From assembly GCA_044373665.1 (NCBI GenBank), contig JBIPNH010000003.1:2196-66195 (forward strand): a stretch of DNA of 64,000 nucleotides. The letters run 5' to 3'. Within the stretch, counting starts at the first letter, position 1. Every line of letters begins with the position of its first letter. Source of the DNA: Bacteroidia bacterium (GTDB taxonomy: Bacteria; Bacteroidota; Bacteroidia; NS11-12g; UBA955). Shown piece after piece: positions 11,216-58,873 of this stretch. The notes beneath the pieces were generated by a model. That model made no database searches. It was given only the letters and a program-made list of their open reading frames with translations, and was not told where the DNA came from. The translations under genes and the position numbers were made by a program.

Positions 11216-12193
11216 ATGAATATTCCGTTGACCCAACATCCAGTATTGTGCAATTATTATGTCACTTACCGATGTAATGCCAAATGTTCATTTTGCGATA
11301 TATGGGAAAAACCTTCGCCTTACGTAACACTCAATGAAGTGACCCAAAATCTGAAAGACTTAAAAAGATTAGGTGTAAATGTTATAGATTTTACGGGTGG
11401 TGAACCACTCCTTCACAGGCAATTACCCGATTTTTTGAGAATCGCTAAATCATTGGGATTTATTACAACAGTGACAACGAATGCACTACTTTATCCTAAA
11501 ATGGCCACTTCATTAAAAGGGCTTATTGACATGCTTCATTTTTCACTAGATTCACCTCATGAAGCAGCACATAACGAAAGCCGAGGGGTTAAATTATTTG
11601 ATAAATTTTTAGAATCAATAGAAGTCGCTAAAAACCTTAACGAAAGACCCGACATCATTTTCACTGTTTTCAGTCACAATATTCACGAAATAGAGGAAGT
11701 TTACAACCGTTTTTGCCTTCCCAATCAGTTCATGTTAATTCTTAATCCCGTGTTTGAATACAACGAAGTTGGAGCGCAGTTAAGCAAAGCAGATTTAGAC
11801 ATTTTGAGTGTTTGGGGCAAAAAAAAGTTCGTTTACTTGAACCAAGGGTTTATAGAACTCAGAAAAAACGGCGGCAATCATATTACAAATCCGGTTTGTA
11901 AAGCAGGAAGTACAACAGTGGTTATTTCCCCTGAAAATGAATTGGTACTTCCTTGTTATCATTTGGGACTTGAGAACCATAAAATCAGCAATAATTTGTA
12001 TGAATTATGGAGCAGTAAAAACATCCAAAAAGCCATAAAAATGGAAGGTAGGCATGCGGCTTGCGAGGGCTGTACTATCAACTGTTATATGCAACCAAGT
12101 TTTGCCACACATTTAAGTCAATATTGGTTCAAAGCATTGCCATCCACACTCAAATACAATTTAATTAAAGGGACTTGGAAACAACTTTTGTAA
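11216..12193 (+). CDS. radical SAM protein (C-terminal Cys-rich, SPASM-like tail)
   Basis: CNAKCSFC = the CxxxCxxC cluster motif in YVTYRCNAKCSFCDIWEK, plus a GGEPLL SAM-binding motif and a C-terminal CEGCTINC. Start moved to the ATG at 11216, 3 nt after the upstream stop. Confidence 0.8.
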   Translation: MNIPLTQHPVLCNYYVTYRCNAKCSFCDIWEKPSPYVTLNEVTQNLKDLKRLGVNVIDFTGGEPLLHRQLPDFLRIAKSLGFITTVTTNALLYPKMATSLKGLIDMLHFSLDSPHEAAHNESRGVKLFDKFLESIEVAKNLNERPDIIFTVFSHNIHEIEEVYNRFCLPNQFMLILNPVFEYNEVGAQLSKADLDILSVWGKKKFVYLNQGFIELRKNGGNHITNPVCKAGSTTVVISPENELVLPCYHLGLENHKISNNLYELWSSKNIQKAIKMEGRHAACEGCTINCYMQPSFATHLSQYWFKALPSTLKYNLIKGTWKQLL

Positions 12194-12238
12194 GAGATTC
12201 ACGAATCCTTTCAGCTTTTGAAATCTTTTGTTTTTGCA

Positions 12239-14239
12239 ATGTATTTAAATAATATATTTGCAAATAAAACATTGGTAGATATTTCGGTCATAATAGTGAA
12301 TTACAACGTACAAGCTTTGCTTGAACAAACCGTTTTATCTGTTTATAAAGCCGCGTCCAATTTAAACATCGAAATTATTGTCGTTGACAACCATTCTGCT
12401 GACGAATCATGCAACATGATACGCAGGCGTTTTAAGGATGTTATTTTAATTGACAATCAAGACAATGTTGGGTTTAGCAGAGCAAATAACCAAGGAATAG
12501 AAATAGCAAAAGGGCAACATGTATTAATACTAAATCCTGACACTGTTTTAAGCGAAGACAGCCTTAGCAAAACACATCAATATTTACTTTCACACACAGA
12601 TGTAGGTGCTTTGGGAGTAAGGATGATAGATGGCAGAGGAACTTTTTTACCTGAATCAAAAAGGGGTTTACCAACGCCAATGGTTGCCTTTTACAAAATG
12701 AGTGGATTGGCGAAACTTTTTCCAAACTCTAAAAGATTCGGGGCGTATCACCTAAGCTACCTCAATGAATTTGAAAACCACGAGGTGGATGTATTGAGTG
12801 GTGCTTTTATGATGATTAAGAAAAAGGTATTGGATGAAGTTGGTTATTTTGATGAAAGTTTTTTTATGTATGGCGAAGACATTGATTTAAGCTATCGCAT
12901 TCAAAAGGCAGGCTATAAAAATGTCTATTTTGCCGAAACGACCATCATTCATTACAAAGGAGAAAGCACCAAAAAGCACAGCGTAAATTATGTCAAAATT
13001 TTTTACCAAGCCATGGCCAAATTTGCAAAGAAACACTTTAGCAAACAACAAGGTTGGTGGTTTTCTGTGTGTATTAATTTAGCTATCTTTTTAAGAGCAA
13101 TTATCGCCCTTATCAATCGAACACTTAGTCAATTGAAATTGGTGGCAGCCGATTATATACTCACCTATTTGGCTTATGGTGGTATTACTAGGTATTGGGA
13201 ACATTACAACAAGTTTGTGATTGGCGGATTTTATCCCGACCATTATTTGTATTTACATGTCCCTATTTATTGTCTTTTTTGGATAGGCGGCATTTATGTT
13301 AGTGGGGGTTATCAATACAAGTTTGATTTATCTAAATCATCACGAGGTATTATTTTAGGTTCAGTTACTTTACTGACTGCCTACGCATTACTTCCCGAAA
13401 ACATGAGATTTTCTAGGGCATTGATTGTTTTGGGTGCAACATTGGCTTTTTTAATTAGTCTATTTAATCGATTGGTTTTTCATTTCTTAAAATACAAACA
13501 TTTAAATACCAATACCAGTCAACTGTCACAAGTGGTTATTATTGGCGAACCAGAAGAATGTGAAAGAGTCAAACAGATTTTGATATTGTATCCCAATCGT
13601 TTTAAACTGATTGGATTTATTCGTCCTAAATTTTCAAATACAGTTGGAGATTGGATGGGTCATTCAGAGCATTTGAATGATTTGATAGACTTGTACCAAA
13701 TCAATGAAATTATATTTTGTGCCAAAGACATTCCGGGTACAGAAATAATGGAAATGATGAGTAAAAGCAATAATACCCATGTTAAATTTAAAATAATGCC
13801 CGAAAAAGGTGAATTTATCATAGGCAGCAATTCCAAAAATACAAGTGGTGAATTTTATAGCGTAGATATTACACCTGCACTGAACAATCAAGAAACACGA
13901 AACAAAAAAAGAATGTTCGATTTGATTATCTGTTTTCTATTAATTCCTGCTGCACTTTTTATACTTTGGAATTTAAAAACATTCCGACTTATCTATCGCA
14001 ATTGGATGGCTTGTTTAATAGGCCAAAAAACTTGGGTTGGATACCACCCCAATGTTGACATTAAAAAACTACCCTTGCTAAAACCTGGCGTTTTTAAAGT
14101 TGGCGAACATTTGACTAACAAAAACAAAGACAATCAACATGTTAACCATCTAAACCTTATTTATGCCACAAATTATAATTGGCAATTTGATTTAAATATC
14201 CTTGTAAAAGAAATATTTTCTAATAACTTCGCAAAATAA
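12239..14239 (+). CDS. family 2 glycosyltransferase fused to a polytopic membrane region and a degenerate polyprenyl-phosphate sugar-transferase-like C-terminus
   Basis: N-terminus: ISVIIVNYN...VVDNHS.D...GFSRANN...NPD and YGEDIDLSYR (GT2 DxD/ED motifs). Middle: several TM helices and a Rossmann-like VVIIGEPEE...EIIFC segment. C-terminus: KRMFDLIICFLLIPAALFILW ... GQKTWVGYHP ... KPGVF ... YATNYNWQFDLNIL resembles a bacterial sugar-transferase domain that lacks its central catalytic part. The start is uncertain (12218, 12239 or 12272). Confidence 0.65.
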   Translation: MYLNNIFANKTLVDISVIIVNYNVQALLEQTVLSVYKAASNLNIEIIVVDNHSADESCNMIRRRFKDVILIDNQDNVGFSRANNQGIEIAKGQHVLILNPDTVLSEDSLSKTHQYLLSHTDVGALGVRMIDGRGTFLPESKRGLPTPMVAFYKMSGLAKLFPNSKRFGAYHLSYLNEFENHEVDVLSGAFMMIKKKVLDEVGYFDESFFMYGEDIDLSYRIQKAGYKNVYFAETTIIHYKGESTKKHSVNYVKIFYQAMAKFAKKHFSKQQGWWFSVCINLAIFLRAIIALINRTLSQLKLVAADYILTYLAYGGITRYWEHYNKFVIGGFYPDHYLYLHVPIYCLFWIGGIYVSGGYQYKFDLSKSSRGIILGSVTLLTAYALLPENMRFSRALIVLGATLAFLISLFNRLVFHFLKYKHLNTNTSQLSQVVIIGEPEECERVKQILILYPNRFKLIGFIRPKFSNTVGDWMGHSEHLNDLIDLYQINEIIFCAKDIPGTEIMEMMSKSNNTHVKFKIMPEKGEFIIGSNSKNTSGEFYSVDITPALNNQETRNKKRMFDLIICFLLIPAALFILWNLKTFRLIYRNWMACLIGQKTWVGYHPNVDIKKLPLLKPGVFKVGEHLTNKNKDNQHVNHLNLIYATNYNWQFDLNILVKEIFSNNFAK

Positions 14240-46097: not shown

Positions 46098-46171
46098 TCC
46101 TTGATAGCTCAGCTGGTTAGAGCGAGTGACTGTTAATCACTAGGTCCCTGGTTCGAGCCCAGGTCAGGGAG
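46098..46171 (+). tRNA. tRNA-Asn (anticodon GTT)
   Basis: Manual cloverleaf. Acceptor stem tccttga/tcaggga (one G-U pair). D arm gctc-agctggtta-gagc. Anticodon stem agtga/tcact with loop ctGTTaa. T arm cctgg-ttcgagc-ccagg. Discriminator g. CCA is not encoded. Confidence 0.92.
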
Positions 46172-46183
46172 CAAAACAAAACA

Positions 46184-46209
46184 AGGCGACAGAAATGTCG
46201 CCTTTTTTT
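46184..46209 (+). terminator. rho-independent terminator after tRNA-Asn
   Basis: AGGCGAC-agaaat-GTCGCCT followed by tttttt. Confidence 0.8.
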
Positions 46210-46421
46210 ATGCCAGATTCTTAAAAACCCTTGTTATCATTGAGGATTAGAAATGTCCAAATACTGAGTTTGGTGGTTCGATATACTCCATTTCCATAAA
46301 CCAATAAATCTCTCAATATCTTGCTAATGATTTCTTGCTTCCCTATTAAATCTAAGTTTTTAAATAGATGAGTGATTTTTTCCTAAATCAGTAAGGAATT
46401 TTATGTAATTTTGAACGCAAA

Positions 46422-46808
46422 ATGCAACGCTTCAGACACCATATTATTTTCCGACTTATTTGTCTACTGATGGCGTTTCATATCTTCAACTGCAGTGTGG
46501 ACACTCCAGATGCAAAGCCCGACTATATTCCCGAAGATCTGTCTTACAACGATATCGAAAGTGTTGCCGAACTTATTCTAGAAGAAGTTTTAAATATTGA
46601 AAATGCAATTGCCGAACACGATGAAAAAGACACAGAAGACGGCAATAGTTTTGACCTTAAAAAAGATTTTGTTTATTTCCATCGAACAGAAGTTAAGAAC
46701 GACAAAAATTTCAACAACGGACTCTCCATAATTGCTTTAACCTATTATGATGAGCAATACAGCTCACAATTTCACCCCGAAATTGTGCCTCCACCACCCA
46801 AGTCCTAA
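46422..46808 (+). CDS. hypothetical small membrane/secreted protein upstream of the RND operon
   Basis: 128 aa with an N-terminal hydrophobic segment IIFRLICLLMAFHIFNC, an acidic middle and a PPPP C-terminus. No known domain recognised. Confidence 0.4.
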   Translation: MQRFRHHIIFRLICLLMAFHIFNCSVDTPDAKPDYIPEDLSYNDIESVAELILEEVLNIENAIAEHDEKDTEDGNSFDLKKDFVYFHRTEVKNDKNFNNGLSIIALTYYDEQYSSQFHPEIVPPPPKS

Positions 46809-46916
46809 TTCACCTTTTCAGCTGTTTTTAATTTAAGCCATTCAAAAAATTGAATTGCCTTTTGGTTTGGAGTAATCTCCAAACTCATTATCATTTTTAA
46901 CAATTTCATAAAATCA

Positions 46917-48029
46917 ATGAACAAGATAGTATTGCTATTTAGCATCGTTGTGGGCTTTGCGGCTTGCACATCAACCGAAGAAAACAAAACTGAACCAGGG
47001 AAATTCCCTTTAACCAGCCCACTTTTGGTGGACACCACATACACAAGTGAATATGTTGCCGAAATACAATCATTACATAATGTAGAAATAAGGGCAAAAA
47101 TCAAGGGCTACATAGAAAAAATTTATGTTGACGAAGGAAAACCTGTTAAAGCAGGACAAACCCTTTTCAGCATTAGCAATAAGGAGTTTAATCAGGAACT
47201 TTTGAAAGCAAAAGCAATGCTAAAAACTGTAATTGCTGAAGCAAAAACTGCCGAATTAGAACTACAAAACGTAAAAACTTTATCCGACAAAAACATTGTT
47301 TCTAAAACAGAATTGGAAAAAGCACAAGCCAATTTGGATGCTGCCAATGCACGGATTGACGAGGCAAAAGCCAATGAAGCAAGTGCAAGCATTAATTTAT
47401 CTCTAACGGAGATCAAAGCACCTTTTGACGGAACAGTTAACCGCATTCCTTTTAAGACAGGCAGTTTGATTGATGAAGGAACTTTGCTTACATCACTTTC
47501 AAACAACAAAGAAGTATATGCCTATTTCAATGTTTCGGAAAAGGAATATTTGGACTACACCACCAAAAAAGTAAACGGAGAGAAAAACAACATCACCCTT
47601 TTCTTGGCAAACGCAAAAGCCCACAAATACAAAGGAACAGTTGAAACCATTGAAGGGGAGTTTGACAAAAACACAGGGAACATTGCTTTTAGGGCAATAT
47701 TTCCAAATCCTGATTTGTTGCTCAAACATGGTTCAAGTGGCAAAGTGCAATTAACAAGCAACATAAAAAATGCTTTGCTAATTCCTCAAAAAGCAACCTT
47801 TGAAATTCAGGATAAATTTTATGTTTTTGTTGTAGATGCAAACAATGTTGTAAAGCAAAGAAACATAGTAATAAAGCAGCGTTTGCCGCAACTGTATGTT
47901 ATTGAAAGCGGACTTTCTGCAAATGATAAAATAATTTACGAAGGCATACAAACCGTGAAAGAAGGCGATAAAATCGTAACTGATTTTGTGCCGATGCAAC
48001 AAGTTATTTCACAATTAAAAACGCAATAA
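46917..48029 (+). CDS. RND efflux periplasmic adaptor subunit (AcrA/MexA-like), lipoprotein
   Basis: Lipobox FAAC, a lipoyl-like GYIEKIYVDEGKPVKAGQTLF segment, and a coiled-coil hairpin. Confidence 0.88.
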   Translation: MNKIVLLFSIVVGFAACTSTEENKTEPGKFPLTSPLLVDTTYTSEYVAEIQSLHNVEIRAKIKGYIEKIYVDEGKPVKAGQTLFSISNKEFNQELLKAKAMLKTVIAEAKTAELELQNVKTLSDKNIVSKTELEKAQANLDAANARIDEAKANEASASINLSLTEIKAPFDGTVNRIPFKTGSLIDEGTLLTSLSNNKEVYAYFNVSEKEYLDYTTKKVNGEKNNITLFLANAKAHKYKGTVETIEGEFDKNTGNIAFRAIFPNPDLLLKHGSSGKVQLTSNIKNALLIPQKATFEIQDKFYVFVVDANNVVKQRNIVIKQRLPQLYVIESGLSANDKIIYEGIQTVKEGDKIVTDFVPMQQVISQLKTQ

Positions 48030-48031
48030 AG

Positions 48032-51000
48032 ATGTTTAATAAATTTATTCACAGACCTGTTCTGTCCATAGTAATATCTTTAATGATATTGATATTGGGT
48101 GGTTTGGCACTTACTCAGTTGCCAATGACCCAATTCCCAAGTATAGCTCCACCCGAAGTAAACGTCACCATAGAATACACTGGTGCAAATGCAGAAACAG
48201 TTACAAAAGCAGCAATTGTTCCTTTAGAACGTGCCATAAATGGAGTTCCAGGAATGAAATATATGAGTAGTGATGCTGGAAACGATGGTGTAGGAGTTGT
48301 ACAAATACTTTTTGAAATAGGAACAAACCCAGATGTAGCTGCCGTTAACGTTCAAAATAGAGTAGCTGCCGTAATGGGTGAATTGCCTGCCGAAGTTATC
48401 CGTAATGGGGTAAAAATTGCCAAGGAAGAAAACGCAATGTTGATGTATTTGAACATATACAGCAACGATACAACGGTTGAAGAAAAGTTCCTTTATAACT
48501 TTGCCGATATCAATATTTTGGCAGAATTAAAACGTGTAAACGGTGTTGGCTATGCAGATATTTTAGGTGCAAAAGAATATGCAATGAGGGTTTGGTTAAA
48601 ACCCGATAAAATGCTCAATTACAAACTATCAACCGAAGATATTTTAACAGCTTTAGAAGAACAAAACGTAGAAGCAGCTCCTGGAAAAGTGGGTGAAAGT
48701 TCTGATAAAAAAGCACAAGCCTTACAGTATGTAATTAAATACACAGGTAAATACAATACCAAAGAAGAGTTTGAAAATATTGCCATAAAATCAACCATTA
48801 ACGGACAAATTTTAAGAGTAAAGGACATTGCGGATGTGGAGTTTGGCACTATTTATTTTGATGTGGAAGCCAAACTAAACGGCAAGCCATGTGCTGCAAT
48901 TATGCTTAAACAATTGCCAGGTTCTAATGCAAGTGAGGTAATAAAAAATGTAAAGTTGAGAATGACTGAAATCAAAAAATCAACTTTCACTAATGGAATG
49001 GACTATGAAATGAGCTATGATGTTTCTAAATTTTTAGATGCTTCGGTACACGAAGTTTTGAGAACATTATTAGAAGCATTTTTATTGGTGGCATTGGTAG
49101 TATTTATCTTTTTGGGTGATTTCCGTTCTACATTAATTCCTGCCATTGCAGTGCCCGTTTCGCTTGTTGGAACATTCTTTTTTATGCAACTATTTGGGTT
49201 TTCTATTAACCTAATAACCTTGTTTGCATTGGTTTTAGCAATTGGAATTGTGGTTGACAATGCAATTGTAGTAGTTGAAGCAGTTCATGCCAAAATGGAA
49301 GAACTTAACATAGATGCAAAAACGGCAACCGAAATAGCAATGAAAGAAATTAGCGGGGCGATTATTGCAATCACATTAGTAATGTCAGCAGTATTTATTC
49401 CTGTTGCATTTATGTCTGGCCCTGTGGGTATTTTCTACCGACAATTTTCGGTTACAATGGCGATCTCAATCGTGCTTTCAGGAATTAGTGCCTTGACATT
49501 AACCCCTGCCTTATGTGCCATGCTACTAAAAAACACACACGGAAAAGAGAAAAAGAAAAACTGGTTAAACAAATTCTTAGATGGTTTCAATAACCGTTAC
49601 AACAAACTTTCAAACCGTTACCAAAAACTGCTTGGTTATATAGTAAACAGAAGAGTAATTACATTCTTGGCATTGCTTATTTTCTGTTTGGGAACTTGGG
49701 GTTTAGGTAAAATTTTGCCTTCGGGTTTTATTCCAAACGAAGACCAAGGCACTTTTTATGCAAGTATAACAACTCCTTCGGGTGCAACTTTGGAGCGTAC
49801 AAAAGCAGTTGTTAATGAAGTTCAAAAATCGTGTTTGGGTGTTGATGCCATACAATCCGTTTCTTCATTAGCAGGAACAAATATCTTGTCGGATGGAACA
49901 GGGGCAACTTATGGCACTTGCTTAATTAACCTAAAAGATTGGGACAACAGAACAGAAAGTGTGGATGATGTTATTGCAATCATTGAAGAAAAAACAAAAC
50001 ATATTAAAGACGCTAAAATTGAGTTTTTTCCACCTCCAGCAGTACCTGGTTATGGTAATGCAAGCGGCTTTGAATTACGCCTTTTGAATAAAACAGGAAG
50101 CGGTGATTTCAAAAAAATGGAAGCAATAGTAAACCAATTCCTTCTAGATTTAAAAGCCCGACCAGAAATAGCAAGTGCATTTACCATTTTTGATGCCAGT
50201 TATCCGCAGTTTATGCTACATATTGATAATGACAAAGCTGCACAAAAAGGTGTAACGGTAAACAATGCAATGGGAACTTTACAAACCATGCTTGGCAGCG
50301 AATACGCTACAAACTTTATCAAGTTTAACCAAATGTATAAAGTAATGGTGCAAGCATTGCCCGAATATCGTGCTAAACCAGAAGATATTTTAAAACTAAC
50401 TGTTAAAAACGATGTTGGCGAAATGATTCCACTGTCCGCTTTTATGGATATTGAAAAAGTGTATGGTGTTGACCAAATTACACGTTATAATATGTATCCA
50501 TCGGCAGAATTAAATGGTGAAGCAAAAGCAGGTTATAGCAGCGGTGCGGTAATTTCAGCTATTCAAGAAGTTGCAAAAACTAAACTACCTAGAGGTTACG
50601 ACATTGACTGGGCAGGTATTACAAGAGATGAAGTAGCCACAGGAAACCAAGCTATTTACATTTTTATTATCTGTCTGCTATTTGTGTATTTACTATTGGC
50701 AGCACAATACGAAAGTTTTGTATTGCCTTTGCCTGTGATTCTTTCCTTGCCTACTGGTGTTTTCGGAGCATTTTTCCTGTTAACCATTTTGGGACTTGAA
50801 AACAATATTTATGCACAGGTAGCAATGGTTATGCTTATTGGCTTGTTAGGCAAAAATGCCGTATTGATTGTGGAGTTTGCCGTTCAAAAACATCGTGAAG
50901 GGCGGACAGTTTTTCAAGCAGCCATTGAAGGAGCAACGGTTAGGTTACGCCCAATCTTAATGACCTCATTTGCCTTTATAGCAGGTTTATTACCACTCGT

Positions 51001-51199
51001 TTTTGCAAGTGGTGCAGGTGCAGTAGGTAACAGAACAATAGGCACAGCAGCCGCAGGTGGTATGCTTTTCGGAACAATTTTCGGAGTAATAATCGTTCCA
51101 GGGCTTTACTACATTTTTGCAAGAATTTCAGAGAAAAACTTGCTGATTGACACAGAAGCAGAAAATCCATTAACAGAAGAAATTGAGAACAACAGATGA
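48032..51199 (+). CDS. RND efflux permease (HAE1/AcrB family)
   Basis: 1055 aa with 12 TM segments; FIHRPVLSIV N-terminus and AIGIVVDNAIVVVE motif. Confidence 0.92.
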   Translation: MFNKFIHRPVLSIVISLMILILGGLALTQLPMTQFPSIAPPEVNVTIEYTGANAETVTKAAIVPLERAINGVPGMKYMSSDAGNDGVGVVQILFEIGTNPDVAAVNVQNRVAAVMGELPAEVIRNGVKIAKEENAMLMYLNIYSNDTTVEEKFLYNFADINILAELKRVNGVGYADILGAKEYAMRVWLKPDKMLNYKLSTEDILTALEEQNVEAAPGKVGESSDKKAQALQYVIKYTGKYNTKEEFENIAIKSTINGQILRVKDIADVEFGTIYFDVEAKLNGKPCAAIMLKQLPGSNASEVIKNVKLRMTEIKKSTFTNGMDYEMSYDVSKFLDASVHEVLRTLLEAFLLVALVVFIFLGDFRSTLIPAIAVPVSLVGTFFFMQLFGFSINLITLFALVLAIGIVVDNAIVVVEAVHAKMEELNIDAKTATEIAMKEISGAIIAITLVMSAVFIPVAFMSGPVGIFYRQFSVTMAISIVLSGISALTLTPALCAMLLKNTHGKEKKKNWLNKFLDGFNNRYNKLSNRYQKLLGYIVNRRVITFLALLIFCLGTWGLGKILPSGFIPNEDQGTFYASITTPSGATLERTKAVVNEVQKSCLGVDAIQSVSSLAGTNILSDGTGATYGTCLINLKDWDNRTESVDDVIAIIEEKTKHIKDAKIEFFPPPAVPGYGNASGFELRLLNKTGSGDFKKMEAIVNQFLLDLKARPEIASAFTIFDASYPQFMLHIDNDKAAQKGVTVNNAMGTLQTMLGSEYATNFIKFNQMYKVMVQALPEYRAKPEDILKLTVKNDVGEMIPLSAFMDIEKVYGVDQITRYNMYPSAELNGEAKAGYSSGAVISAIQEVAKTKLPRGYDIDWAGITRDEVATGNQAIYIFIICLLFVYLLLAAQYESFVLPLPVILSLPTGVFGAFFLLTILGLENNIYAQVAMVMLIGLLGKNAVLIVEFAVQKHREGRTVFQAAIEGATVRLRPILMTSFAFIAGLLPLVFASGAGAVGNRTIGTAAAGGMLFGTIFGVIIVPGLYYIFARISEKNLLIDTEAENPLTEEIENNR

Positions 51200-52629
51200 A
51201 ATCACTTAAAAAAAATTTAGGTATACTTTCGATATTAGTTAGCATTGTTTATTTGAGTTGCAAAACACCCGAAACTATTGTAAAGAACGATAGAAAAAAA
51301 ATACCAATATCTTTTGAAGAAACAAAAGACAGCAGCAATTCGGCAGACATAAAGTGGAAAGATTTTTTTGCAGATAAAGATTTAATCATACTGATCGATA
51401 CTGCACTGAAAAACAATTTTGATGTGCTGATGACCTTGCAAAAAATTGAAATGGCAAGAAATGATTTGCGTTTAACCAAAGGTGCCATGCTGCCAACAGT
51501 TAATTCAAACTTTGCTTATTTGCAACGCAAATTTGGTTACTATACAATGGATGATGCAGGGAATAGAACAACAGAAATTACACCTGGACAAATCATTCCA
51601 ACAAATTTACCCGACTACTTTGTAGGAATACAAACCAATTGGGAAATTGACATTTGGGGCAAACTTCGCAACAAAAAGAAAGCGGCATTTTCAAGGTATT
51701 TAAGTAGCGTGGAAGGCACACATTTAGTGCTTACAAATTTGGTCTCTGAAATTGCAAATGCTTATTATGAATTGATTACATTGGACAATGAGTTAGACAT
51801 AATCCGTGAAACAATTAAGTTGCAGCAAGACGCATTAGAAATAATAAAAGTGCAGAAAGAAACTGGTGTAGCCAATGAATTAGCGGTAAAACAGTTTGAA
51901 GCACAAGTATTAAACTCACAAGGTTTGGAATTTGAAACCCTACAACAAATCACAGAGAACGAAAACAAAATGAATTTTTTGTTGGGCAGATTTCCGCAAC
52001 CAATTTTTAGGGAAAAATTCAATTTCACAACTCCAATTCCAACACAAATAAAAGCAGGTATTCCTTCCCAATTACTCAAAAACCGACCCGACATAAAGCA
52101 AACAGAGTTTGAATTATTGGCAACAAAATTTGATGTAAAAGCAGCTAAAGCCGCTTTTTATCCATCATTCAACATTACAGGTTCTTTGGGCTTTCAAGCA
52201 TTCAACACAGCTTTTCTTTTCGCTTCTCCGCAGTCTTTAGCTTACAATTTGTTAGGAAGTTTGGCAACACCCCTAATAAACCGAAGTGCCATAAAAGCAC
52301 AATTCAACAATGCAAAGGTCAATCAATTAGAGGCAATGTATAATTATCAGAAAACCATTTTGAACGGTTATGTTGAAGTATCAAATGAAATTTCAAATAT
52401 CAAAAATTTGGAACAAATCCACGACCGTAAAACCAAAGAAGTTAATGCATTATCGCAGTCCATTGACATTTCAAACGACTTGTTCAAATCAGGACGGGCA
52501 ACCTATTTTGAAGTTTTAATGATACAAAGCCGTTCTTTACAATCAAAACTTGAACTAGTACATACAAAAAAACGACAATACAACGCAACTGTGAATATTT
52601 ACAAAGCATTGGGAGGCGGTTGGAGGTAA
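51196..52629 (+). CDS. RND efflux outer-membrane factor lipoprotein (NodT family)
   Basis: Lipobox YLSC, TolC-type repeats, and a C-terminal YKALGGGW motif. 4-nt overlap with the permease gene. Confidence 0.88.
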   Translation: MKSLKKNLGILSILVSIVYLSCKTPETIVKNDRKKIPISFEETKDSSNSADIKWKDFFADKDLIILIDTALKNNFDVLMTLQKIEMARNDLRLTKGAMLPTVNSNFAYLQRKFGYYTMDDAGNRTTEITPGQIIPTNLPDYFVGIQTNWEIDIWGKLRNKKKAAFSRYLSSVEGTHLVLTNLVSEIANAYYELITLDNELDIIRETIKLQQDALEIIKVQKETGVANELAVKQFEAQVLNSQGLEFETLQQITENENKMNFLLGRFPQPIFREKFNFTTPIPTQIKAGIPSQLLKNRPDIKQTEFELLATKFDVKAAKAAFYPSFNITGSLGFQAFNTAFLFASPQSLAYNLLGSLATPLINRSAIKAQFNNAKVNQLEAMYNYQKTILNGYVEVSNEISNIKNLEQIHDRKTKEVNALSQSIDISNDLFKSGRATYFEVLMIQSRSLQSKLELVHTKKRQYNATVNIYKALGGGWR

Positions 52630-52714
52630 ACTGTCTCAAACTTGCCAGTACTTTAACTATGCTTCTTGATTTCAAAGAACTAACGCAAAATTAAGTGTCG
52701 CATAGACCCTCAAT

Positions 52715-52755
52715 TCATCCCAAAATCGGTTCGAGAATAGACCACCCTGGGGAGC
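52715..52755 (+). repeat. 41-bp direct repeat, left copy (tRNA 3'-half-like)
   Basis: tcatcccaaaatcGGTTCGAGaatagaccaccctgGGGAGC. By-eye identity to 54691-54731 is 34/41. Confidence 0.75.
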
Positions 52756-52804
52756 ACAAATGATAAAAAGGTTATACTTTTGTAGTGTAACCTTTTTATG
52801 TTTT

Positions 52805-52912
52805 ATGGATAAGTTAGTTCAATTCCTTAAAAAGTACCGAAATGAAGTTATCGTGGGCGTACTTGTGTTTCTCTTCTTGATTTTCCGAGATATAATAAAG
52901 ACTTTCCTATAA
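52805..52912 (+). CDS. possible 35-aa hydrophobic peptide
   Basis: My translation: MDKLVQFLKKYRNEVIVGVLVFLFLIFRDIIKTFL*. A TACTTTTG -7-like box lies at 52775-52782 and a terminator at 53004-53031. Too short for the ORF track, and there is no independent support. Confidence 0.2.
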   Translation: MDKLVQFLKKYRNEVIVGVLVFLFLIFRDIIKTFL

Positions 52913-53003
52913 AATTGCAGGAACTTTAACCCTTCAATTTCCTCATAGTAACATACTCTATCATCGCATTATAGTTGCATCTTTCGACGAAAAGGGGAGC
53001 CAA

Positions 53004-53031
53004 AAGCCTCACAGTATTGTGGGGCTTTTTT
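53004..53031 (+). terminator. rho-independent terminator
   Basis: AAGCCTCACA-gtat-TGTGGGGCTT (one G-U pair) followed by tttttt. Confidence 0.7.
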
Positions 53032-53059
53032 GTGTTTACATGCTTGGGGTAATTTCATA

Positions 53060-53099
53060 TTCCGCCAAAACAAACTAAATTGATGGATTTTGGCGAATT
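53060..53099. repeat. palindromic element H1 (imperfect) immediately 3' of the ATPase gene
   Basis: ttccgccaaaa-N17-ttttggcgaatt. Shares the 17-mer attttggcgaattataa with H2. Confidence 0.75.
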
Positions 53100-53106
53100 A
53101 TAAATA

Positions 53107-54522
53107 CTAATCAATAAATAAAACATCCATTTCCAAGTGACTATGAACTAATTCTTTGCTAAATTCATTTTCCTTAATTCCATAAGTCGTAATTAGCGTT
53201 ACGAAAATATTTTTCCTAGTTTTGGTATCTTGTTGTAGCTCTACAATTTTATTTTTCAGATTCATATAATATGATTTATCAATTGTAAAAACAGCATTAT
53301 AAAACTTCATTTCACACAATTGCATAACATTATCGCTTCGGTCAATCAATAGATCGACTTGGGCATTTTCATTAAACCAACTGCTGCCCGTTGTATAAAT
53401 AGCATCTATTCTCAACGCCTTCTTGATTTGTTGAATATGTTTAAGGCAAAGCGTTTCAAAAGCAAATCCAGACCATGAGAGATAGGATTGGGTAGTATAA
53501 AGTTTTTGCCAAGTCCCAGCTCCACCATTCTTGTTATTGTCAATAAACTTCAAGTAAAATCTAGAATACTCATCGGATAAGCGATAAAGTGTGAGCTGTT
53601 TCTTATTCTGATAGTATGGAGAATCCGTTACAAAGCCAGATTCAATTAACTCTTCAAGTTTTGAAGTAAAATCACCACTAGACGATATTTTACTTTGATT
53701 TATTAATTCATTCCTTGTCAGCCCTTTATTTGATTTTGCCAACGTTTTTATAAGTTTCATATGACGCACAGATTCATCAAATAGAGAAGCAAACAAATGA
53801 TTAAACTCATCGTTCAATATACCATCTTTACTAAAACATAATTTATCGATATTTTGAGATGCACTTAACCCTTTGCACAATTTTTCTAAATAGTGCGGCA
53901 CCCCGCCCAAAGCCATATAAATTTGTATCACGTCATAACGAGTATATTTTATACCATTCTTTATCAAAAACTGTTCTGTTTCAAATAGATTAAATGGAAG
54001 CAAACGTATTTTTCTTGAGATTCTATTATGCAGTCCGCCTTTATTTTTTATTATTTTCTGAACCATATAGGAAGCAGCAGAGCCACAAATAACCACAATC
54101 AAATCATTCCTTTTTGTGCAATAGGTATTCCAAAAGTTTTCAAAGGCCATTAAAAACTTCGATTTGGGCGTAGCTATCCAAGGAAATTCATCGATAAATA
54201 TTACTTTTTTACTCCCTGATTTAAAAGCCCCCAAATAAGATTCAAGCATTGTGAATGCCTGAAACCATGATTTTGCAGTCTCCAATTCAGTCTTCTTTGT
54301 TCTTTTAATGAGTTCCTTATTGAAAGTTTCAAGTTGATCTTTTAATGAGCCTCCAAATAATCCTGACATTTCAAAAACAAGATTAGCCTTAAAGTATTCA
54401 CGTATCAGATACGTTTTACCAATTCTTCTTCGCCCGTATAGGGCAATTAATTCAGACTTGTCATTGTCAATGGCTTCTTTGAGAAGTGCCTGCTCAAACT
54501 TTCTACCAATAATTTTATTCAT
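53107..54522 (-). CDS. AAA+ ATPase (archaeal-ATPase/ORC-like P-loop) fused to a DUF234-type wHTH/PD-(D/E)xK nuclease-like C-terminus
   Basis: Walker A in LYGRRRIGKTYL, Walker B in VIFIDEF, and a C-terminal FETLC...VDLLID...LCEMKF pattern (E...D...ExK). Confidence 0.75.
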   Translation of the reverse strand: MNKIIGRKFEQALLKEAIDNDKSELIALYGRRRIGKTYLIREYFKANLVFEMSGLFGGSLKDQLETFNKELIKRTKKTELETAKSWFQAFTMLESYLGAFKSGSKKVIFIDEFPWIATPKSKFLMAFENFWNTYCTKRNDLIVVICGSAASYMVQKIIKNKGGLHNRISRKIRLLPFNLFETEQFLIKNGIKYTRYDVIQIYMALGGVPHYLEKLCKGLSASQNIDKLCFSKDGILNDEFNHLFASLFDESVRHMKLIKTLAKSNKGLTRNELINQSKISSSGDFTSKLEELIESGFVTDSPYYQNKKQLTLYRLSDEYSRFYLKFIDNNKNGGAGTWQKLYTTQSYLSWSGFAFETLCLKHIQQIKKALRIDAIYTTGSSWFNENAQVDLLIDRSDNVMQLCEMKFYNAVFTIDKSYYMNLKNKIVELQQDTKTRKNIFVTLITTYGIKENEFSKELVHSHLEMDVLFID

Positions 54523-54531
54523 AAAGATAAG

Positions 54532-54580
54532 TTATAATTCGCCAAAATTACAAAATAAAATCAATTTTGGCGAATTATAA
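54532..54580. repeat. palindromic element H2 (perfect 18-bp inverted repeat) immediately 5' of the ATPase gene
   Basis: ttataattcgccaaaatt-N13-aattttggcgaattataa. On the minus strand it contains a TAATTTTG -7-like box upstream of the ATG at 54522. Confidence 0.8.
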
Positions 54581-54690
54581 TAATATTTTAGCAATTTCCC
54601 TTAACCATAATAAAGAGATTTTGTTACTTGACTCTAAAGAAATATTACCAAAATTAACTATAACCTATTATACCAAAGCTGCATAAATCC

Positions 54691-54731
54691 TCATCCCAAA
54701 ATTGATTCGAGAATAGCCCCGTTTGGGGAGC
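54691..54731 (+). repeat. 41-bp direct repeat, right copy
   Basis: tcatcccaaaattGATTCGAGaatagccccgtttgGGGAGC. A partial third copy (ggggagccaaaa) lies at 52994-53005. Confidence 0.75.
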
Positions 54732-54764
54732 CAAAAAAAACACTCATCTTCTAATAGCTTTTTA

Positions 54765-55280
54765 TTAAATATCTTTCACAAACCAATAATCTGTTTGGGG
54801 TGTAGACCCTAATGGGAAATCATTTTCTATTCCTGAATTCAAAAAGCCATGTTTTTCATAAAAACCTCGGGCGCGGAAATTGTATTCCCAAACTGACAAA
54901 TACATCATATTAAAGCCTTTGTTTCGGGCAAAATCTATTGCAAAATCCATGAGCTTATTGGCTATACCCATTCCATGAAATTCTTTTAACACATACAATC
55001 TTACCAACTCAACAGAGTTTCGATTTTGAAATGCCTCTAATGGGCAATCATGTTTAGCATTGATACGCATATACCCTTTCACTAACCCATCTTCTTCAAA
55101 GAAGAAAAAGTTGTCATTATCGTCTAATAATTCTAACTGAACTTGTGCCGGATTAAAATACAAATCTAAAACACCCCTCATGTCTTCCTTTGTACAGGTA
55201 TTGCCAAAGGTATCGTCGAAAGTTTTTCTTCCAATTTCATGTAAAAGTGTAACATCATCCAAATTACCGCGTCGAATCAT
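54765..55280 (-). CDS. GNAT family N-acetyltransferase
   Basis: 171 aa with an acetyl-CoA-binding motif region: LYVLKEFHGMGIANKLM. Confidence 0.8.
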   Translation of the reverse strand: MIRRGNLDDVTLLHEIGRKTFDDTFGNTCTKEDMRGVLDLYFNPAQVQLELLDDNDNFFFFEEDGLVKGYMRINAKHDCPLEAFQNRNSVELVRLYVLKEFHGMGIANKLMDFAIDFARNKGFNMMYLSVWEYNFRARGFYEKHGFLNSGIENDFPLGSTPQTDYWFVKDI

Positions 55281-55552
55281 TTGACAAAGTTATAACATTT
55301 GATTCTTAAACAATAAATAATCACATTTGAGAAAACTTAAACCCAATAATTATCTGAAATTTATGGTTTAACTAATGTATTGAAACCTCCACTTTAATCA
55401 TTAAGTGAAGCCAAACAGAGTAAAGAGTTTAATCACCCTTTTTTATAATTTACCTTACTAAAAAAACCTTGTTGTTGTGGAAAACGCCATTGTTTTCTTA
55501 AAAGTCACAGCTTTGTAATTTCTGATAGCCGACAATTCTCAATTTCTTGTAT

Positions 55553-57352: not shown

Positions 57353-58873
57353 TTAATTATTTTTTTCATCTCTCCCATATTCATTTTCCCAAAAATCAGC
57401 ATTTTTAATCCCTAAGTCGCTTGGTCTAAAAATCGGGTCTTTTCCTTCCTTTCTCTGTCTTTCAAAATCTTTAAAAGCAAGCAGCGCTGGTTTTTGGAGA
57501 ATTATAATAGCGATTACATTTAACCAAGCCATAATACCAACCCCCATATCTCCAAGATCCCATGCAATTGTTGCAGCACGAACACAACCCAAATATACAG
57601 CAGCCATGATGACTAGTTTTAATAAAAAAAGCAAAACAGGTGCGCGTTTTTTTTGAGTGAGATAAGCGAGATTGGTTTCCGCAATATAATAGTAAGCCAT
57701 TAGTGTAGTAAAAGCAAAGAAAAACAATGCAATTGCCACAAAATAGCTGCCTGTTCCTACATAACCTGGATGAAATGTCTCTTGACCACTGCTGAAAGCT
57801 TTGTCAATTGCAGCCTGCGTATAGGTAGGGCTTCCATCCACTTGCTTAACCCCATCCTGAACATAATACACGCCATTATCAACTATTAAATTTCCATCAG
57901 CTCCTTTTACATTGTACATGCCCGTAATTAAAATCATAAAGGCAGTGGCCGAACAAACAAAAAGCGTATCAACATAAACAGAAAAAGCCTGTACTAAACC
58001 TTGTTTAGCAGGATGAGATACTTCGGCTGCTGACGAAGGATGGGGACCAGTCCCTTGACCAGCTTCATTGCTATAAACACCTCTCTTTACACCTATTGTA
58101 ATCATTGCACCAATGATACCAGCAAATGATGCCTTTAATCCAAAAGCACTACTTATTATCAAACTAAAAATTTCAGGAATTCTTTCATAATTCAAACCCA
58201 TAATGATAAGGGCGACTAAAATATAAGCAGATGCCATAAAAGGCACTACAAATTCGGCCACTTTAGCGATATTTTTAATCCCTCCAAAAATGACTAATCC
58301 TAACAATAAAGCAAGTACTATTCCTGTATAAACATATTTAATGTCAAAAGCACTTTTAATGGCAGAAGCAATACTGTTTGATTGTACTCCAGGCAGTAAT
58401 AATCCGCAAGCTAAAATAGTTGAAATAGCAAAGACGATTGCATACCATTTTCCAATCGCTTTATTTTTAAATCCTTTTTCAATATAAAACGCTGGGCCAC
58501 CTCTGTACTCTCCATTCTCTTTTATTTTGTAGATTTGTCCAAGGGTAGATTCAATAAAAGCAGAACCGGAACCTAAAAATGCGACAAGCCACATCCAAAA
58601 AACCGCTCCCGGACCGCCAATATATATAGCTGTTGCTACTCCTGCAATATTCCCTGTGCCTACTCTACCTGCCAAAGAGACTGCCAAAGATTGAAAAGAA
58701 GAAATACCTGCTGAGGATTTAGTGCTGCCAAACATCTGTTTTATCATTTCTTTAAAGAGTCTGACTTGAAAAAAACGCATCCGAATAGAGAAATAAACGC
58801 CTGTTATGAGCAATAAATAGATTAATGCATTGCTCCAAATAATGGAGTTCAAATATTTTACAAAGTTTTCCAA
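57353..58873 (-). CDS. alanine/glycine:cation symporter (AGCS family)
   Basis: About 11 TM segments; motifs SSFQSLAVSLAGRVGTGNIAGVATAI and RGVYSNEAGQG. TTG start as given in the ORF track. Confidence 0.88.
   Translation of the reverse strand: MENFVKYLNSIIWSNALIYLLLITGVYFSIRMRFFQVRLFKEMIKQMFGSTKSSAGISSFQSLAVSLAGRVGTGNIAGVATAIYIGGPGAVFWMWLVAFLGSGSAFIESTLGQIYKIKENGEYRGGPAFYIEKGFKNKAIGKWYAIVFAISTILACGLLLPGVQSNSIASAIKSAFDIKYVYTGIVLALLLGLVIFGGIKNIAKVAEFVVPFMASAYILVALIIMGLNYERIPEIFSLIISSAFGLKASFAGIIGAMITIGVKRGVYSNEAGQGTGPHPSSAAEVSHPAKQGLVQAFSVYVDTLFVCSATAFMILITGMYNVKGADGNLIVDNGVYYVQDGVKQVDGSPTYTQAAIDKAFSSGQETFHPGYVGTGSYFVAIALFFFAFTTLMAYYYIAETNLAYLTQKKRAPVLLFLLKLVIMAAVYLGCVRAATIAWDLGDMGVGIMAWLNVIAIIILQKPALLAFKDFERQRKEGKDPIFRPSDLGIKNADFWENEYGRDEKNN

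What the first reader, a model, noticed from the sequence alone, without database searches (positions are those of the whole stretch)
53060..54580. Single-gene AAA+ ATPase/PD-(D/E)xK unit bracketed by two copies of the same palindrome
Seen in sequence: the 471-aa protein has Walker A (GRRRIGKT) and Walker B (VIFIDEF) motifs. Its C-terminal region has an E...D...ExK pattern (FETLC, VDLLID, LCEMKF), as in DUF234/restriction-endonuclease-fold domains. A perfect 18-bp inverted repeat lies 10-58 bp upstream of its start (54532-54580, ttataattcgccaaaatt-N13-aattttggcgaattataa). An imperfect copy of the same palindrome lies 8-47 bp downstream of its stop (53060-53099). The two share the 17-mer attttggcgaattataa in the same orientation. 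Inference: the gene and its flanking hairpins look like a discrete, possibly mobile or recombination-delimited module, and the upstream copy overlaps a -7-like box (TAATTTTG) and could be an auto-operator. NTPase-nuclease fusions of this kind are candidates for conflict or defence functions, but as far as I know this family has no established role.
Basis: partly seen in the sequence, partly recalled or inferred. Interest (0 to 1): 0.6.

Follow-up and report, generated by a model that had tools for sequence, protein, structure and literature searches.

The report
Self-addressed ATPase-nuclease gene with private palindromes
A horizontally acquired single gene for an Orc/Cdc6-like ATPase fused to a DNA-cutting domain (the untested phage-defence candidate PDC-S27) carries its own private DNA palindromes before and after the gene, and the protein most likely binds them itself to control its own expression.

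Summary
The 471-aa gene (53107-54522, minus strand) has a perfect 18-bp-arm palindrome 10-58 nt upstream and an imperfect copy 3 nt after the stop. The half-site occurs nowhere else in the 2.66-Mb genome.

The protein is an Orc1/Cdc6-like AAA+ ATPase, a winged helix and a PD-(D/E)xK nuclease domain. It matches PADLOC candidate PDC-S27 (E=2.9e-188).

The palindromes are a family-wide feature. Across 89 homologous loci, each gene has its own half-site close to the gene and almost never inside it. One genome has 12 paralogues with 12 different palindromes.

The base next to the GCCAAA core co-varies with one residue at the start of the recognition helix (D284 here). Arm mismatches show no RNA-type bias. 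The upstream copy contains the -7 promoter box. I therefore read the palindromes as double-stranded operators bound by the encoded protein, with the downstream copy as an auxiliary operator.

They are not the mobile-element ends. The recently transferred unit (88-90% identical in two other genera) ends at 12-bp direct repeats, GGGGAGCCAAAA, which resemble a tRNA-Asn 3' end.

The biological role is unproven. One published test of a PDC-S27 gene gave no phage protection.

The parts
53107..54522 (-). 471-aa ATPase_2 / winged-helix / DUF234 gene (PDC-S27 family). AAA+ domain about residues 1-245, wHTH 251-315, PD-(D/E)xK 345-471.
   Evidence: PADLOC PDC-S27 E=2.9e-188 over residues 1-469. AF2 model pLDDT 92.8. 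Foldseek best matches 2QEN and archaeal Orc1/Cdc6.
54532..54580 (.). Upstream (primary) palindrome: TTATAATTCGCCAAAATT-N13-AATTTTGGCGAATTATAA. Predicted auto-operator that encloses the core promoter.
   Evidence: It is unique in the genome. Equivalent private palindromes occur in 89 homologous loci.
54543..54550 (-). Bacteroidota-type -7 promoter box TAATTTTG, formed by the spacer end plus the gene-proximal arm.
   Evidence: Read from the sequence. The same sense-strand box is present in 20/43 upstream palindromes of the family, against 5/43 on the antisense side.
53054..53104 (.). Downstream (auxiliary) palindrome, an imperfect copy of the same half-sites. It starts 3 nt after the stop codon.
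   Evidence: I8, D2. A gene's own half-site recurs downstream in 17/52 family loci, against 2.6% for other loci's half-sites. Loci with a downstream copy have fewer upstream half-sites.
53671..53673 (-). Codon of D284, the first turn of the wHTH recognition helix (H283-295). This residue co-varies with the base 5' of the GCCAAA core, which is C here.
   Evidence: An MI scan of all columns ranks it top (z=12.3, next 7.2). Residue-versus-base table. Independent co-changes on the tree.
53110..53490 (-). PD-(D/E)xK nuclease domain (DUF234) with E356, D390, E404 and K406.
   Evidence: These residues are invariant in 73 sequences. The domain model (pLDDT 95.7) matches AF1548, MspJI, EndoMS/NucS and LmuA. 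DUF234 is listed as PD-(D/E)XK family 76 in PMC3424549.
52994..53005 (+). Left copy of the 12-bp direct repeat GGGGAGCCAAAA (tRNA-Asn-3'-end-like). This is the left border of the transferred module.
   Evidence: (D3). Identity to G058 starts at 52991. Genus relatives without the module share sequence up to this GGGGAGC and then diverge.
53007..53033 (.). GC-rich terminator hairpin (GCCTCACA-GTAT-TGTGGGGC plus T run). It belongs to the module and lies beyond the downstream palindrome.
   Evidence: Sequence. It is conserved in the G058 and G036 copies.
54676..54736 (+). D1b: the right-end arm of the module, a degenerate tRNA 3' half (..GATTCGAGAATAG..GGGGAGCCAAAA). It ends in the right copy of the 12-bp repeat (54725-54736).
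   Evidence: D1. Alignments with G036 and G058 both end at 54735. Sequences shown.
52697..52760 (+). D1a: a second copy of the same right-end arm. It closes the RND-efflux insertion that separates tRNA-Asn from its usual downstream sequence.
   Evidence: 89% identical to the G058 module end. In G001 the tRNA-Asn runs directly into the equivalent of 52750-53000.
46098..46172 (+). tRNA-Asn(GTT), the anchor of the variable cassette array in which the module lies.

Best explanation
The locus is a compact single-gene cassette of the PDC-S27 / COG1672 family. It encodes an Orc1/Cdc6-like AAA+ ATPase, a winged helix and a PD-(D/E)xK nuclease domain.

The two flanking palindromes are double-stranded binding sites for the protein's own winged helix. 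Each half-site, TTATAATTC|GCCAAAA, is read by one protomer. D284, at the start of the recognition helix, specifies the C next to the GCCAAA core.

The upstream palindrome wraps the gene's own promoter, with the -7 box TAATTTTG in its proximal arm. Binding there should repress transcription, which would keep a potentially toxic nuclease at a low, homeostatic level after transfer into a new host.

The downstream palindrome is a second, auxiliary operator. The family normally has about four half-sites, either two palindromes upstream or one upstream and one just past the stop codon. In this layout, cooperative binding would bridge the two sites and loop out the 1.4-kb gene.

The cassette reached this genome as part of a 1.73-kb module. 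The module sits in an array of small cassettes downstream of tRNA-Asn and is bounded by 12-bp tRNA-3'-like direct repeats. It has no integrase, so it is probably a stranded remnant, or an element that depends on an integrase supplied in trans.

Shown: the anatomy, the private and co-varying sites, the residue-base covariation, the promoter overlap, the module borders and the patchy distribution.
Inferred: actual binding, repression, looping, nuclease activity and the cellular role (defence or selfish).
For: 1. Specificity to the locus: the half-site is unique to this locus in the genome.

2. Family-wide position, 59 loci: own half-sites give 143 hits within 150 nt upstream and 44 within 150 nt downstream. 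There is 1 hit in the gene bodies and 12 hits beyond 500 nt. The own half-site recurs downstream in 17/52 loci, against 2.6% for foreign half-sites.

3. Orthogonality: genome G066 has 12 full-length paralogues (40-69% aa identity), each with a different palindrome. The own-versus-other matrix gives a diagonal sum of 40 and an off-diagonal sum of 8 over 132 cells.

4. Direct readout:
- An unbiased mutual-information scan of all protein columns against the base 5' of GCCAAA puts D284 first (z=12.3). Second is I293 in the same helix (z=7.2).
- T or S pairs with A in 28/30 cases, D with C in 6/6, Y with C in 3/3, and R with G in 4/5.
- On a tree built with that helix masked, the four R/G tips are each nested among T/A or S/A relatives. 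These are four independent co-changes.

5. Double-stranded DNA, not RNA: arm mismatches are 28 G.T-type, 18 A.C-type (p=0.18) and 35 transversion-type.

6. Promoter overlap: a sense-strand -7 box lies at the spacer/arm junction in 20/43 upstream palindromes, against 5/43 on the antisense side. Downstream copies show 2/11 against 3/11.

7. Footprint: in six Niabella species the 66 nt before the ATG are almost invariant while the sequence further upstream cannot be aligned. The downstream arms are conserved while the spacer varies.

8. Two-site requirement: loci with a downstream palindrome have fewer upstream half-sites (2.24 against 3.11, p=0.009).

9. Fold: the N-terminal two thirds match 2QEN and DNA-bound archaeal Orc1/Cdc6 (2QBY, 1W5T). 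The C-terminal domain has a PD-(D/E)xK fold.

10. No other candidate binder: there is no conserved neighbouring gene.
Against: - No binding, transcription or TSS data exist.
- The -7 box is a motif match only, and only about half of the upstream palindromes carry a strict TAnnTTTG.
- The residue-284 rule has exceptions: Gly pairs with C, A, G and T, and two S/G tips occur.
- In the Niabella downstream element, three species changed both arms in concert. This would also fit selection for a stem, or gene conversion between the arms.
- The looping role of the downstream copy is inferred only from a site-number trade-off.
- A defence role is not supported here. The flanking genes are housekeeping genes. 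Few of 135 nearest neighbours in the family hit defence models convincingly. One PDC-S27 representative gave no protection against T4, T5 or T7 in E. coli B.
Confidence: 0.62

Rival explanations
1. The palindromes are the ends of an autonomous single-gene mobile element. The AAA+/winged-helix/PD-(D/E)xK protein would recognise them and cut or recombine there to move or home the 1.5-kb unit.
For: - The gene is bracketed by copies of the same site.
- Between more distant cassettes (64-84% nt identity), detectable homology stops at the outer edges of the palindromes: +66/+55 nt against L034, +57/+50 nt for L013 against L030.
- The closest PDB sequence match of the ATPase is the transposition regulator TnsC (E=1e-4).
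- The distribution is very patchy, with decayed remnants.
Against: - The most recently transferred copies (88-90% nt identity in three genera) share about 155 nt and 60-110 nt beyond the palindromes. They end at GGGGAGCCAAA direct repeats.
- About two thirds of family loci have no downstream copy.
- No genome examined has near-identical copies. The 12 G066 paralogues are at most 69% identical.
- In Niabella the cassette is syntenic in six species and decays by frameshifts.
- Only the upstream copy carries the promoter box.
- Homology that ends at the palindromes is equally expected from constraint on operators.
Confidence: 0.1
2. The palindromes act as RNA (or single-stranded DNA) hairpins. 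They would be 5'/3' UTR structures that control mRNA stability, translation or termination.
For: - Both elements can form long stems.
- The downstream one lies between the stop codon and the terminator, so it should be transcribed.
- In Niabella, three species show coordinated changes in both arms of the downstream element, and a T-run follows it.
Against: - There is no excess of G.U-compatible mismatches on the sense strand (28 against 18, p=0.18), and there are 35 transversion mismatches.
- The predicted -7 box lies inside the upstream palindrome, so most of that palindrome would not be transcribed.
- Some family members keep the half-sites but arrange them tail-to-tail with 3-6-nt spacers, which changes any hairpin geometry.
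- The protein-residue/base covariation points to duplex readout.
Confidence: 0.07
3. The sites are an ORB-like assembly platform rather than a simple operator. The Orc1/Cdc6-like ATPase would oligomerise on its own flanking palindromes in an ATP-dependent way. The sites would serve as a resting or 'self' address from which the nuclease is released or activated, for example on infection or DNA damage.
For: - The fold is closest to archaeal Orc1/Cdc6, which bind inverted ORB repeats next to their own genes (the ORB arrangement is textbook knowledge).
- About four half-sites per gene bracket or precede it.
- The ATPase and nuclease motifs are strictly conserved, and a mere repressor would not need them.
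Against: Nothing here distinguishes this from plain autorepression. There is no evidence of oligomerisation, of a trigger or of a target. The spacers are 8-20 nt, far shorter than an origin unwinding element.
Confidence: 0.15

Closest known systems
PADLOC 'phage defence candidate' PDC-S27 (Pfam ATPase_2 PF01637 + DUF234 PF03008; COG1672; annotated 'ATP-binding protein' by PGAP)
   Same: Full-length HMM match (E=2.9e-188) and the same ATPase plus PD-(D/E)xK single-gene architecture. The family is widespread in Bacteria and Archaea and occurs on plasmids.
   Different: The papers that name PDC-S27, DUF234 or COG1672 in the library searched treat it only as a catalogue entry. None describes private palindromes, a winged-helix recognition rule or a DNA target. 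Defence is unproven, and one tested representative gave no protection.
Archaeal Orc1/Cdc6 initiators and their ORB inverted repeats (PDB 2QBY, 1W5T); PAB2304 Walker-type ATPase (2QEN)
   Same: Best structural matches for the AAA+ plus winged-helix part. These are sequence-specific winged-helix proteins whose inverted-repeat sites lie next to their own gene.
   Different: Sequence identity is 12-16%. This protein carries an extra PD-(D/E)xK nuclease domain. The spacers are 13-17 nt rather than an AT-rich unwinding region. There is no link to replication, and genes are gained and lost rapidly.
Controller (C) protein / C-box autoregulation of mobile restriction-modification systems, and autoregulated toxin-antitoxin or Abi operators (e.g. 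AbiEi)
   Same: A palindromic operator overlaps the promoter of a horizontally mobile, potentially toxic nuclease gene. Operator sequences are specific to each lineage.
   Different: Here the regulator, the ATPase and the nuclease are one polypeptide. There is no partner gene. In a third of loci an auxiliary operator lies beyond the stop codon.
tRNA-gene-targeting integrative elements and their integrase-less derivatives (cis-mobilisable elements, CIMEs; tandem accretion)
   Same: The module is flanked by direct repeats that resemble the 3' end of tRNA-Asn. It lies in an array of cassettes downstream of that tRNA, and the array differs between species of the genus.
   Different: There is no integrase in the module or on the 66.7-kb contig. 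The repeat is only 12 bp exact. The right-end arm is a degenerate pseudo-tRNA half that is also found at the end of the neighbouring RND-efflux insertion.

Membership tests
PADLOC PDC-S27 | Full-length match to the PDC-S27 profile | tested here: met
   PDLC04984: E=2.9e-188, 624.6 bits, residues 1-469 on profile positions 1-473 of 474.
PADLOC PDC-S27 | Confers anti-phage protection | not testable with these tools
In the literature it is a candidate only. One representative tested in E. coli B against T4, T5 and T7 was not among the protective systems.
Pfam ATPase_2 (PF01637) / Orc1-Cdc6-like AAA+ | Profile score above the gathering cut-off, with Walker A and Walker B present | tested here: met
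   59.4 bits against a cut-off of 33.2. G30-T37 and D111/E112 are invariant in 73 sequences.
Pfam ATPase_2 (PF01637) / Orc1-Cdc6-like AAA+ | AAA+ fold followed by a winged helix | tested here: met
   AF2 pLDDT 92.8. Foldseek: 2QEN E=2.6e-12, 1W5T E=1.2e-10, 2QBY E=2.9e-9.
PD-(D/E)xK nuclease superfamily (DUF234, PF03008) | Conserved E...D...ExK catalytic motif on an alpha-beta-beta-beta-alpha-beta core | tested here: met
   DUF234 scores 24.2 bits against a cut-off of 22.5. E356, D390, E404 and K406 are invariant. The domain model matches AF1548, MspJI, EndoMS and LmuA.
PD-(D/E)xK nuclease superfamily (DUF234, PF03008) | Nuclease activity | not testable with these tools
   Needs biochemistry.
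Autoregulatory operator bound by the gene's own product | The site overlaps the gene's core promoter | tested here: met
   The -7 box TAATTTTG at 54543-54550 lies inside the palindrome. Family: 20/43 sense against 5/43 antisense. This is motif-level evidence only; there are no TSS data.
Autoregulatory operator bound by the gene's own product | Site specificity co-varies with the DNA-reading residues of the encoded protein | tested here: met
   Residue 284 ranks first of all columns (z=12.3). R pairs with G in 4/5, T/S with A in 28/30 and D with C in 6/6. There are at least four independent co-changes. Twelve orthogonal paralogue/site pairs occur in one genome.
Autoregulatory operator bound by the gene's own product | Binding represses transcription | not testable with these tools
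   Needs reporter or RNA data.
Insertion sequence / transposon with terminal inverted repeats | The borders of the mobile unit coincide with the repeats | tested here: not met
   Copies 88-90% identical in three genera extend to 52991/52914 and to 54735, well beyond both palindromes.
Insertion sequence / transposon with terminal inverted repeats | Multiple near-identical copies within genomes | tested here: not met
   The gene is single-copy in G000. The 12 G066 paralogues are at most 69% identical.
Integron gene cassette (attC) | An integron integrase and attI adjacent to the array | tested here: not met
   There is no tyrosine recombinase on the window's contig. The four in the genome lie on other contigs.
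tRNA-targeting integrative element | Direct repeats that duplicate the tRNA 3' end flank the element | tested here: met
   GGGGAGCCAAAA at 52994 and 54725. It resembles the tRNA-Asn 3' end. Relatives without the module diverge right after GGGGAGC.
tRNA-targeting integrative element | The element encodes its own integrase | tested here: not met
   The module has a single ORF. No Phage_integrase hit lies on the contig.

The most novel reading that the evidence does not exclude
PDC-S27 proteins would be bacterial and archaeal Orc1/Cdc6-like, sequence-specific ATPase-nucleases that assemble on private ORB-like palindromes bracketing their own gene. On this reading the sites are more than a repressor target. 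They are the 'home address' of a nucleoprotein complex whose ATPase and nuclease are released or activated from there, or which cuts and recombines at these sites. That would define a self-addressed class of single-gene element with a simple, reprogrammable one-residue/one-base recognition code.
Probability: 0.15. Interest if true: 0.8.

Novelty: new variant of a known kind. Interest (0 to 1): 0.55.

Why it matters
PDC-S27 is among the most abundant candidate defence genes. Published counts are about 8,000 hits in 47,747 genomes and 71% of Halobacteria genomes. Yet it has no known function, target or regulation.

This work gives the family a concrete and testable handle:
- Each gene travels with its own palindromic sites.
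- The encoded winged helix appears to read those sites through residue 284.
- Paralogues within one genome are mutually orthogonal.

The predicted DNA target also suggests why heterologous defence tests may fail: the cloned gene may shut itself off or sit parked on its own sites. The Orc1/Cdc6-like, palindrome-specific ATPase-nuclease may also have a programmable specificity.

For genome annotation, the result shows that such 'hairpin-bracketed' genes are not transposons. In this genome the real mobility signature is a tRNA-Asn-linked cassette array.

Tried and rejected
- Genome-wide REP-like repeat: rejected. The half-site and the D1 repeat occur only at this locus.
- Paralogue family in this genome with the same palindromes: there are no paralogues.
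- RNA hairpin reading: tested through strand asymmetry of the arm mismatches and not supported.
- Palindromes as element termini: rejected for this lineage from three-genome alignments and from relatives that lack the module.
- General tRNA adjacency in the family: only 5 of 89 loci have a tRNA within 3 kb, which is about background. The tRNA-Asn link is specific to the clade with at least 84% identity.
- Conserved partner gene: none found.
- Defence-island context: few of 135 nearest neighbours give convincing PADLOC hits. Most hits are generic ATPase, GlgB or IscS-like matches.
- Empty site for a palindrome-only cassette in Niabella: the five closest species all carry the cassette at the same place, so no empty site was available.
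- NCBIfam: no family hit.
- Literature searches for ATPase_2/Arch_ATPase returned only noise.
Full report
**1. Observation**

The ORF 53107..54522 (minus strand) encodes 471 aa. It contains Walker A GRRRIGKT, Walker B VIFIDEF, and FETLC / VDLLID / LCEMKF.

The upstream palindrome is perfect: arms 54532-54549 and 54563-54580, 18 nt, with a 13-nt spacer. The downstream copy is imperfect: arms 53054-53070 and 53088-53104, 82% complementary, with a 17-nt spacer. The 17-mer ATTTTGGCGAATTATAA is exact at three places.

In the whole 2.66-Mb assembly the exact 16-mer occurs only at these three places. Hits with 1-2 mismatches number 8, against 10 for a reversed control pattern. BLAST of both intergenic regions finds no other copy, and there is no paralogue of the gene.

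**2. The protein**

- Pfam: ATPase_2 (59.4 bits, residues 12-215) and DUF234 (24.2 bits, residues 345-409), both above their cut-offs.
- NCBIfam: no hit.
- PADLOC: PDC-S27, E=2.9e-188 over the full length.
- Full-length AlphaFold2 model from 73 homologues: pLDDT 92.8. Its best PDB matches are the Pyrococcus Walker-type ATPase 2QEN, archaeal Orc1/Cdc6 (1W5T, and 2QBY bound to origin DNA), eukaryotic ORC subunits, and further down TnsC.
- A profile search of PDB sequences finds only TnsC (E=1e-4).
- The C-terminal 136 residues modelled alone (pLDDT 95.7) match PD-(D/E)xK folds: AF1548, MspJI, EndoMS/NucS, LmuA, FokI.
- E356, D390, E404 and K406 are invariant in 73 sequences, as are the Walker motifs.
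- DUF234/COG1672 is listed as PD-(D/E)XK family 76 in PMC3424549.

**3. The palindromes are a family trait and are private to each gene**

A scan of species-representative genomes returned at least 599 relatives, and I kept 80 loci. Together with 9 loci from relatives of the window's genome, almost all show palindromes next to the gene. The general form is TTATA-NNNN-GCCAAA(A) – 8-20-nt T-rich spacer – (T)TTTGGC-NNNN-TATAA, and the variable part differs between lineages.

- Own 14-mer half-sites (up to 2 mismatches), over 59 loci: 143 hits within 150 nt upstream, 44 within 150 nt downstream, 1 in the gene bodies, and 12 beyond 500 nt.
- The own half-site recurs in the 250 nt downstream in 17/52 loci, against 2.6% for other loci's half-sites.
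- One 12.8-Mb Saprospiraceae genome (G066) has 14 matches. Twelve full-length paralogues (40-69% identical) each have a different palindrome. The own-versus-other matrix has a diagonal sum of 40 and an off-diagonal sum of 8 over 132 cells.
- Repeats of the same kind precede homologues in Bacillota. In Butyrivibrio the half-site is even the same TTTTGGCGGAATATA type. Other repeat types precede homologues in Alphaproteobacteria, Wolbachia phage WO, Campylobacterota, Desulfobacterota and a haloarchaeon.

**4. What reads the palindromes**

No neighbouring gene is conserved. The largest neighbour cluster covers 4 of 89 loci. The only lineage-specific factor that is always present is therefore the encoded protein, which has a winged helix (H251-262, H270-277, recognition helix H283-295, wing 298-315).

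I scanned every alignment column for mutual information with the base immediately 5' of the GCCAAA core (58 loci). The top column is residue 284 (z=12.3, 1.06 bits), the first turn of the recognition helix. Second is I293 in the same helix (z=7.2).

| Residue 284 | Base 5' of GCCAAA | Count |
|---|---|---|
| T | A | 19/19 |
| S | A | 9/11 |
| D | C | 6/6 |
| Y | C | 3/3 |
| G | C | 8/12 |
| R | G | 4/5 |

Arg-guanine and Asp-cytosine are classical contacts.

On a maximum-likelihood tree built with that helix masked, the four R/G tips are each nested among T/A or S/A relatives. Examples are L040 against L062 and L103 against L101, both with 100/100 support. These are independent co-changes. The window's protein has D284, and its half-sites read C|GCCAAA.

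**5. Double-stranded DNA site or hairpin?**

Mismatches between arms show no sense-strand wobble bias: 28 G.T-type, 18 A.C-type (p=0.18) and 35 transversion-type. Some family members keep the half-sites but place them tail-to-tail with 3-6-nt spacers. Both points favour duplex recognition by a symmetric dimer over an RNA or ssDNA stem.

**6. Link to the promoter**

On the gene's strand, the spacer end plus the proximal arm form TAATTTTG (54550-54543). This matches the Bacteroidota -7 consensus TAnnTTTG.

The same junction carries a sense-strand -7 box in 20/43 upstream palindromes, against 5/43 on the antisense side. Downstream copies show no enrichment (2/11 and 3/11).

In six Niabella species that share the cassette at one syntenic site, the 66 nt before the ATG are almost invariant. 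The sequence further upstream cannot be aligned. This is the geometry of an auto-operator.

**7. The downstream copy**

The downstream copy is present in about a third of loci. Loci that have it carry fewer upstream half-sites (2.24 against 3.11, Mann-Whitney p=0.009). The family therefore seems to need about two palindromes, and the second can lie either about 55 nt upstream or just past the stop codon. I read it as an auxiliary operator. Binding to both sites would loop out the gene. This step is inferred.

In Niabella the downstream arms are conserved while the spacer varies. One species (G077) has the spacer inverted, and three species changed both arms in concert. That pattern fits gene conversion between the arms but leaves some room for a stem-based role.

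**8. How the gene got here**

The gene is intact in only 1 of 33 genomes of the genus, and two others hold C-terminal remnants. Copies with 92% aa identity occur in another genus (G036) and another family (G058).

Nucleotide identity of 88-90% runs from 52991 (G058) or 52914 (G036) to 54735, and then stops. The module is flanked by an exact 12-mer, GGGGAGCCAAAA, at 52994 and 54725. These are the only two GGGGAGCCAAA in the window. Its right end is a degenerate tRNA 3' half, D1b.

The true tRNA-Asn lies at 46098-46172. In G001 the tRNA-Asn runs directly into the equivalent of 52750-53000. G001 shares sequence up to ...GAAAAGGGGAGC and then continues with a different small cassette. G018 also has an array of small cassettes after tRNA-Asn, separated by 'pseudo-tRNA 3' end plus terminator' units, and G004 (no tRNA on its fetched stretch) carries the same 52750-52980 equivalent. 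G008 has a decayed remnant (palindrome plus the last ~50 codons) in the same kind of slot. L034 (85% aa) lies 228 nt from a tRNA-Asn.

The recently moved unit is therefore a 1.73-kb module with att-like borders in a tRNA-Asn-linked array. It has no integrase. The four Phage_integrase genes of the genome are on other contigs.

Across the wider family, tRNA adjacency is at background level, so this vehicle is specific to the lineage.

The palindromes are not the ends of this unit. No genome shows near-identical copies. In Niabella the gene is stably syntenic, and it is frameshifted in 2 of 6 species.

**9. Function**

The flanking genes here are housekeeping: RND efflux, GNAT, APRT. Few of the 135 nearest neighbours in the family give convincing defence hits.

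The literature treats PDC-S27 as an abundant candidate with no validation. One representative, tested in E. coli B against T4, T5 and T7, was not among the protective systems.

Rapid gain and loss, plasmid carriage (153 plasmids), orthogonal paralogues and tight self-regulation all fit a conflict or selfish gene. The cellular role remains open.

**10. Verdict**

- The architecture and the auto-operator idea are supported and extended.
- The 'palindrome-delimited mobile module' idea is replaced by tRNA-like att borders.
- The gene is a member of a known, uncharacterised candidate family.
- The private, co-varying operator palindromes and the residue-284 rule do not appear in any paper the library searches returned.

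Noticed in passing
window 46173-52760: The RND efflux operon (MFP 46917-48029, pump 48032-51199, outer-membrane factor 51196-52629) plus ORF 46422-46808 is an insertion between tRNA-Asn and that tRNA's usual downstream sequence. In G001 the tRNA-Asn runs straight into the equivalent of 52750; G018 and G004 also lack the operon on the stretches fetched. The right end of the insertion (D1a, 52697-52760) is a copy of the ATPase module's right-end arm and is 89% identical to the G058 copy.
   Followed up: partly
window 52805-52912 (+): A 35-aa hydrophobic small ORF (MDKLVQFLKKYRNEVIVGVLVFLFLIFRDIIKTFL) lies right after the native tRNA-Asn terminator hairpin (52770-52797). It is conserved in G001 and G004.
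   Followed up: partly
window 54765-55347 versus L126/L127/L128: The GNAT acetyltransferase gene lies next to the module here. In G001, G018 and G004 it sits on the other side of the APRT-to-symporter block, between the equivalents of 59369 and 59598. This is a local transposition of a native gene without inversion.
   Followed up: no
L126 (G001) 1660-2700; L127 (G018) 11700-12440; L027 (G008) 9560-11660: Downstream of tRNA-Asn, these genus relatives carry arrays of small cassettes separated by 'pseudo-tRNA 3' end (TTCGAG...GGGAGC) plus terminator' units. Several cassettes hold a small gene whose motifs look GIY-YIG-like (not checked with a family search). G008 also has tandem GCACCCTGAGCGGAG-type repeats around it.
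   Followed up: partly
L168 (G077) and L169 (G073), Niabella: Two of six syntenic Niabella orthologues are broken by frameshifts while their palindromes stay intact. In G077 the spacer of the downstream palindrome is inverted relative to the other species.
   Followed up: partly
G066 (L136-L148): A 12.8-Mb Saprospiraceae MAG gives 14 matches to this family: 12 full-length paralogues with their own palindromes, a 5'-truncated copy and a short C-terminal fragment. Two pairs lie only about 5 kb apart (C33 569-576 kb; C11 143-150 kb).
   Followed up: partly
L032 2178-3329: One family member lies next to a gene of the other orphan ATPase family (PDC-S01). Two of 135 nearest neighbours hit PDC-S01.
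   Followed up: no
window 57491-57507: TTTTTGGAGAATTATAA, a 2-mismatch look-alike of the half-site, lies inside the alanine/sodium symporter gene. It is also present in G001 and G018, so it is native coding sequence and a chance match.
   Followed up: yes
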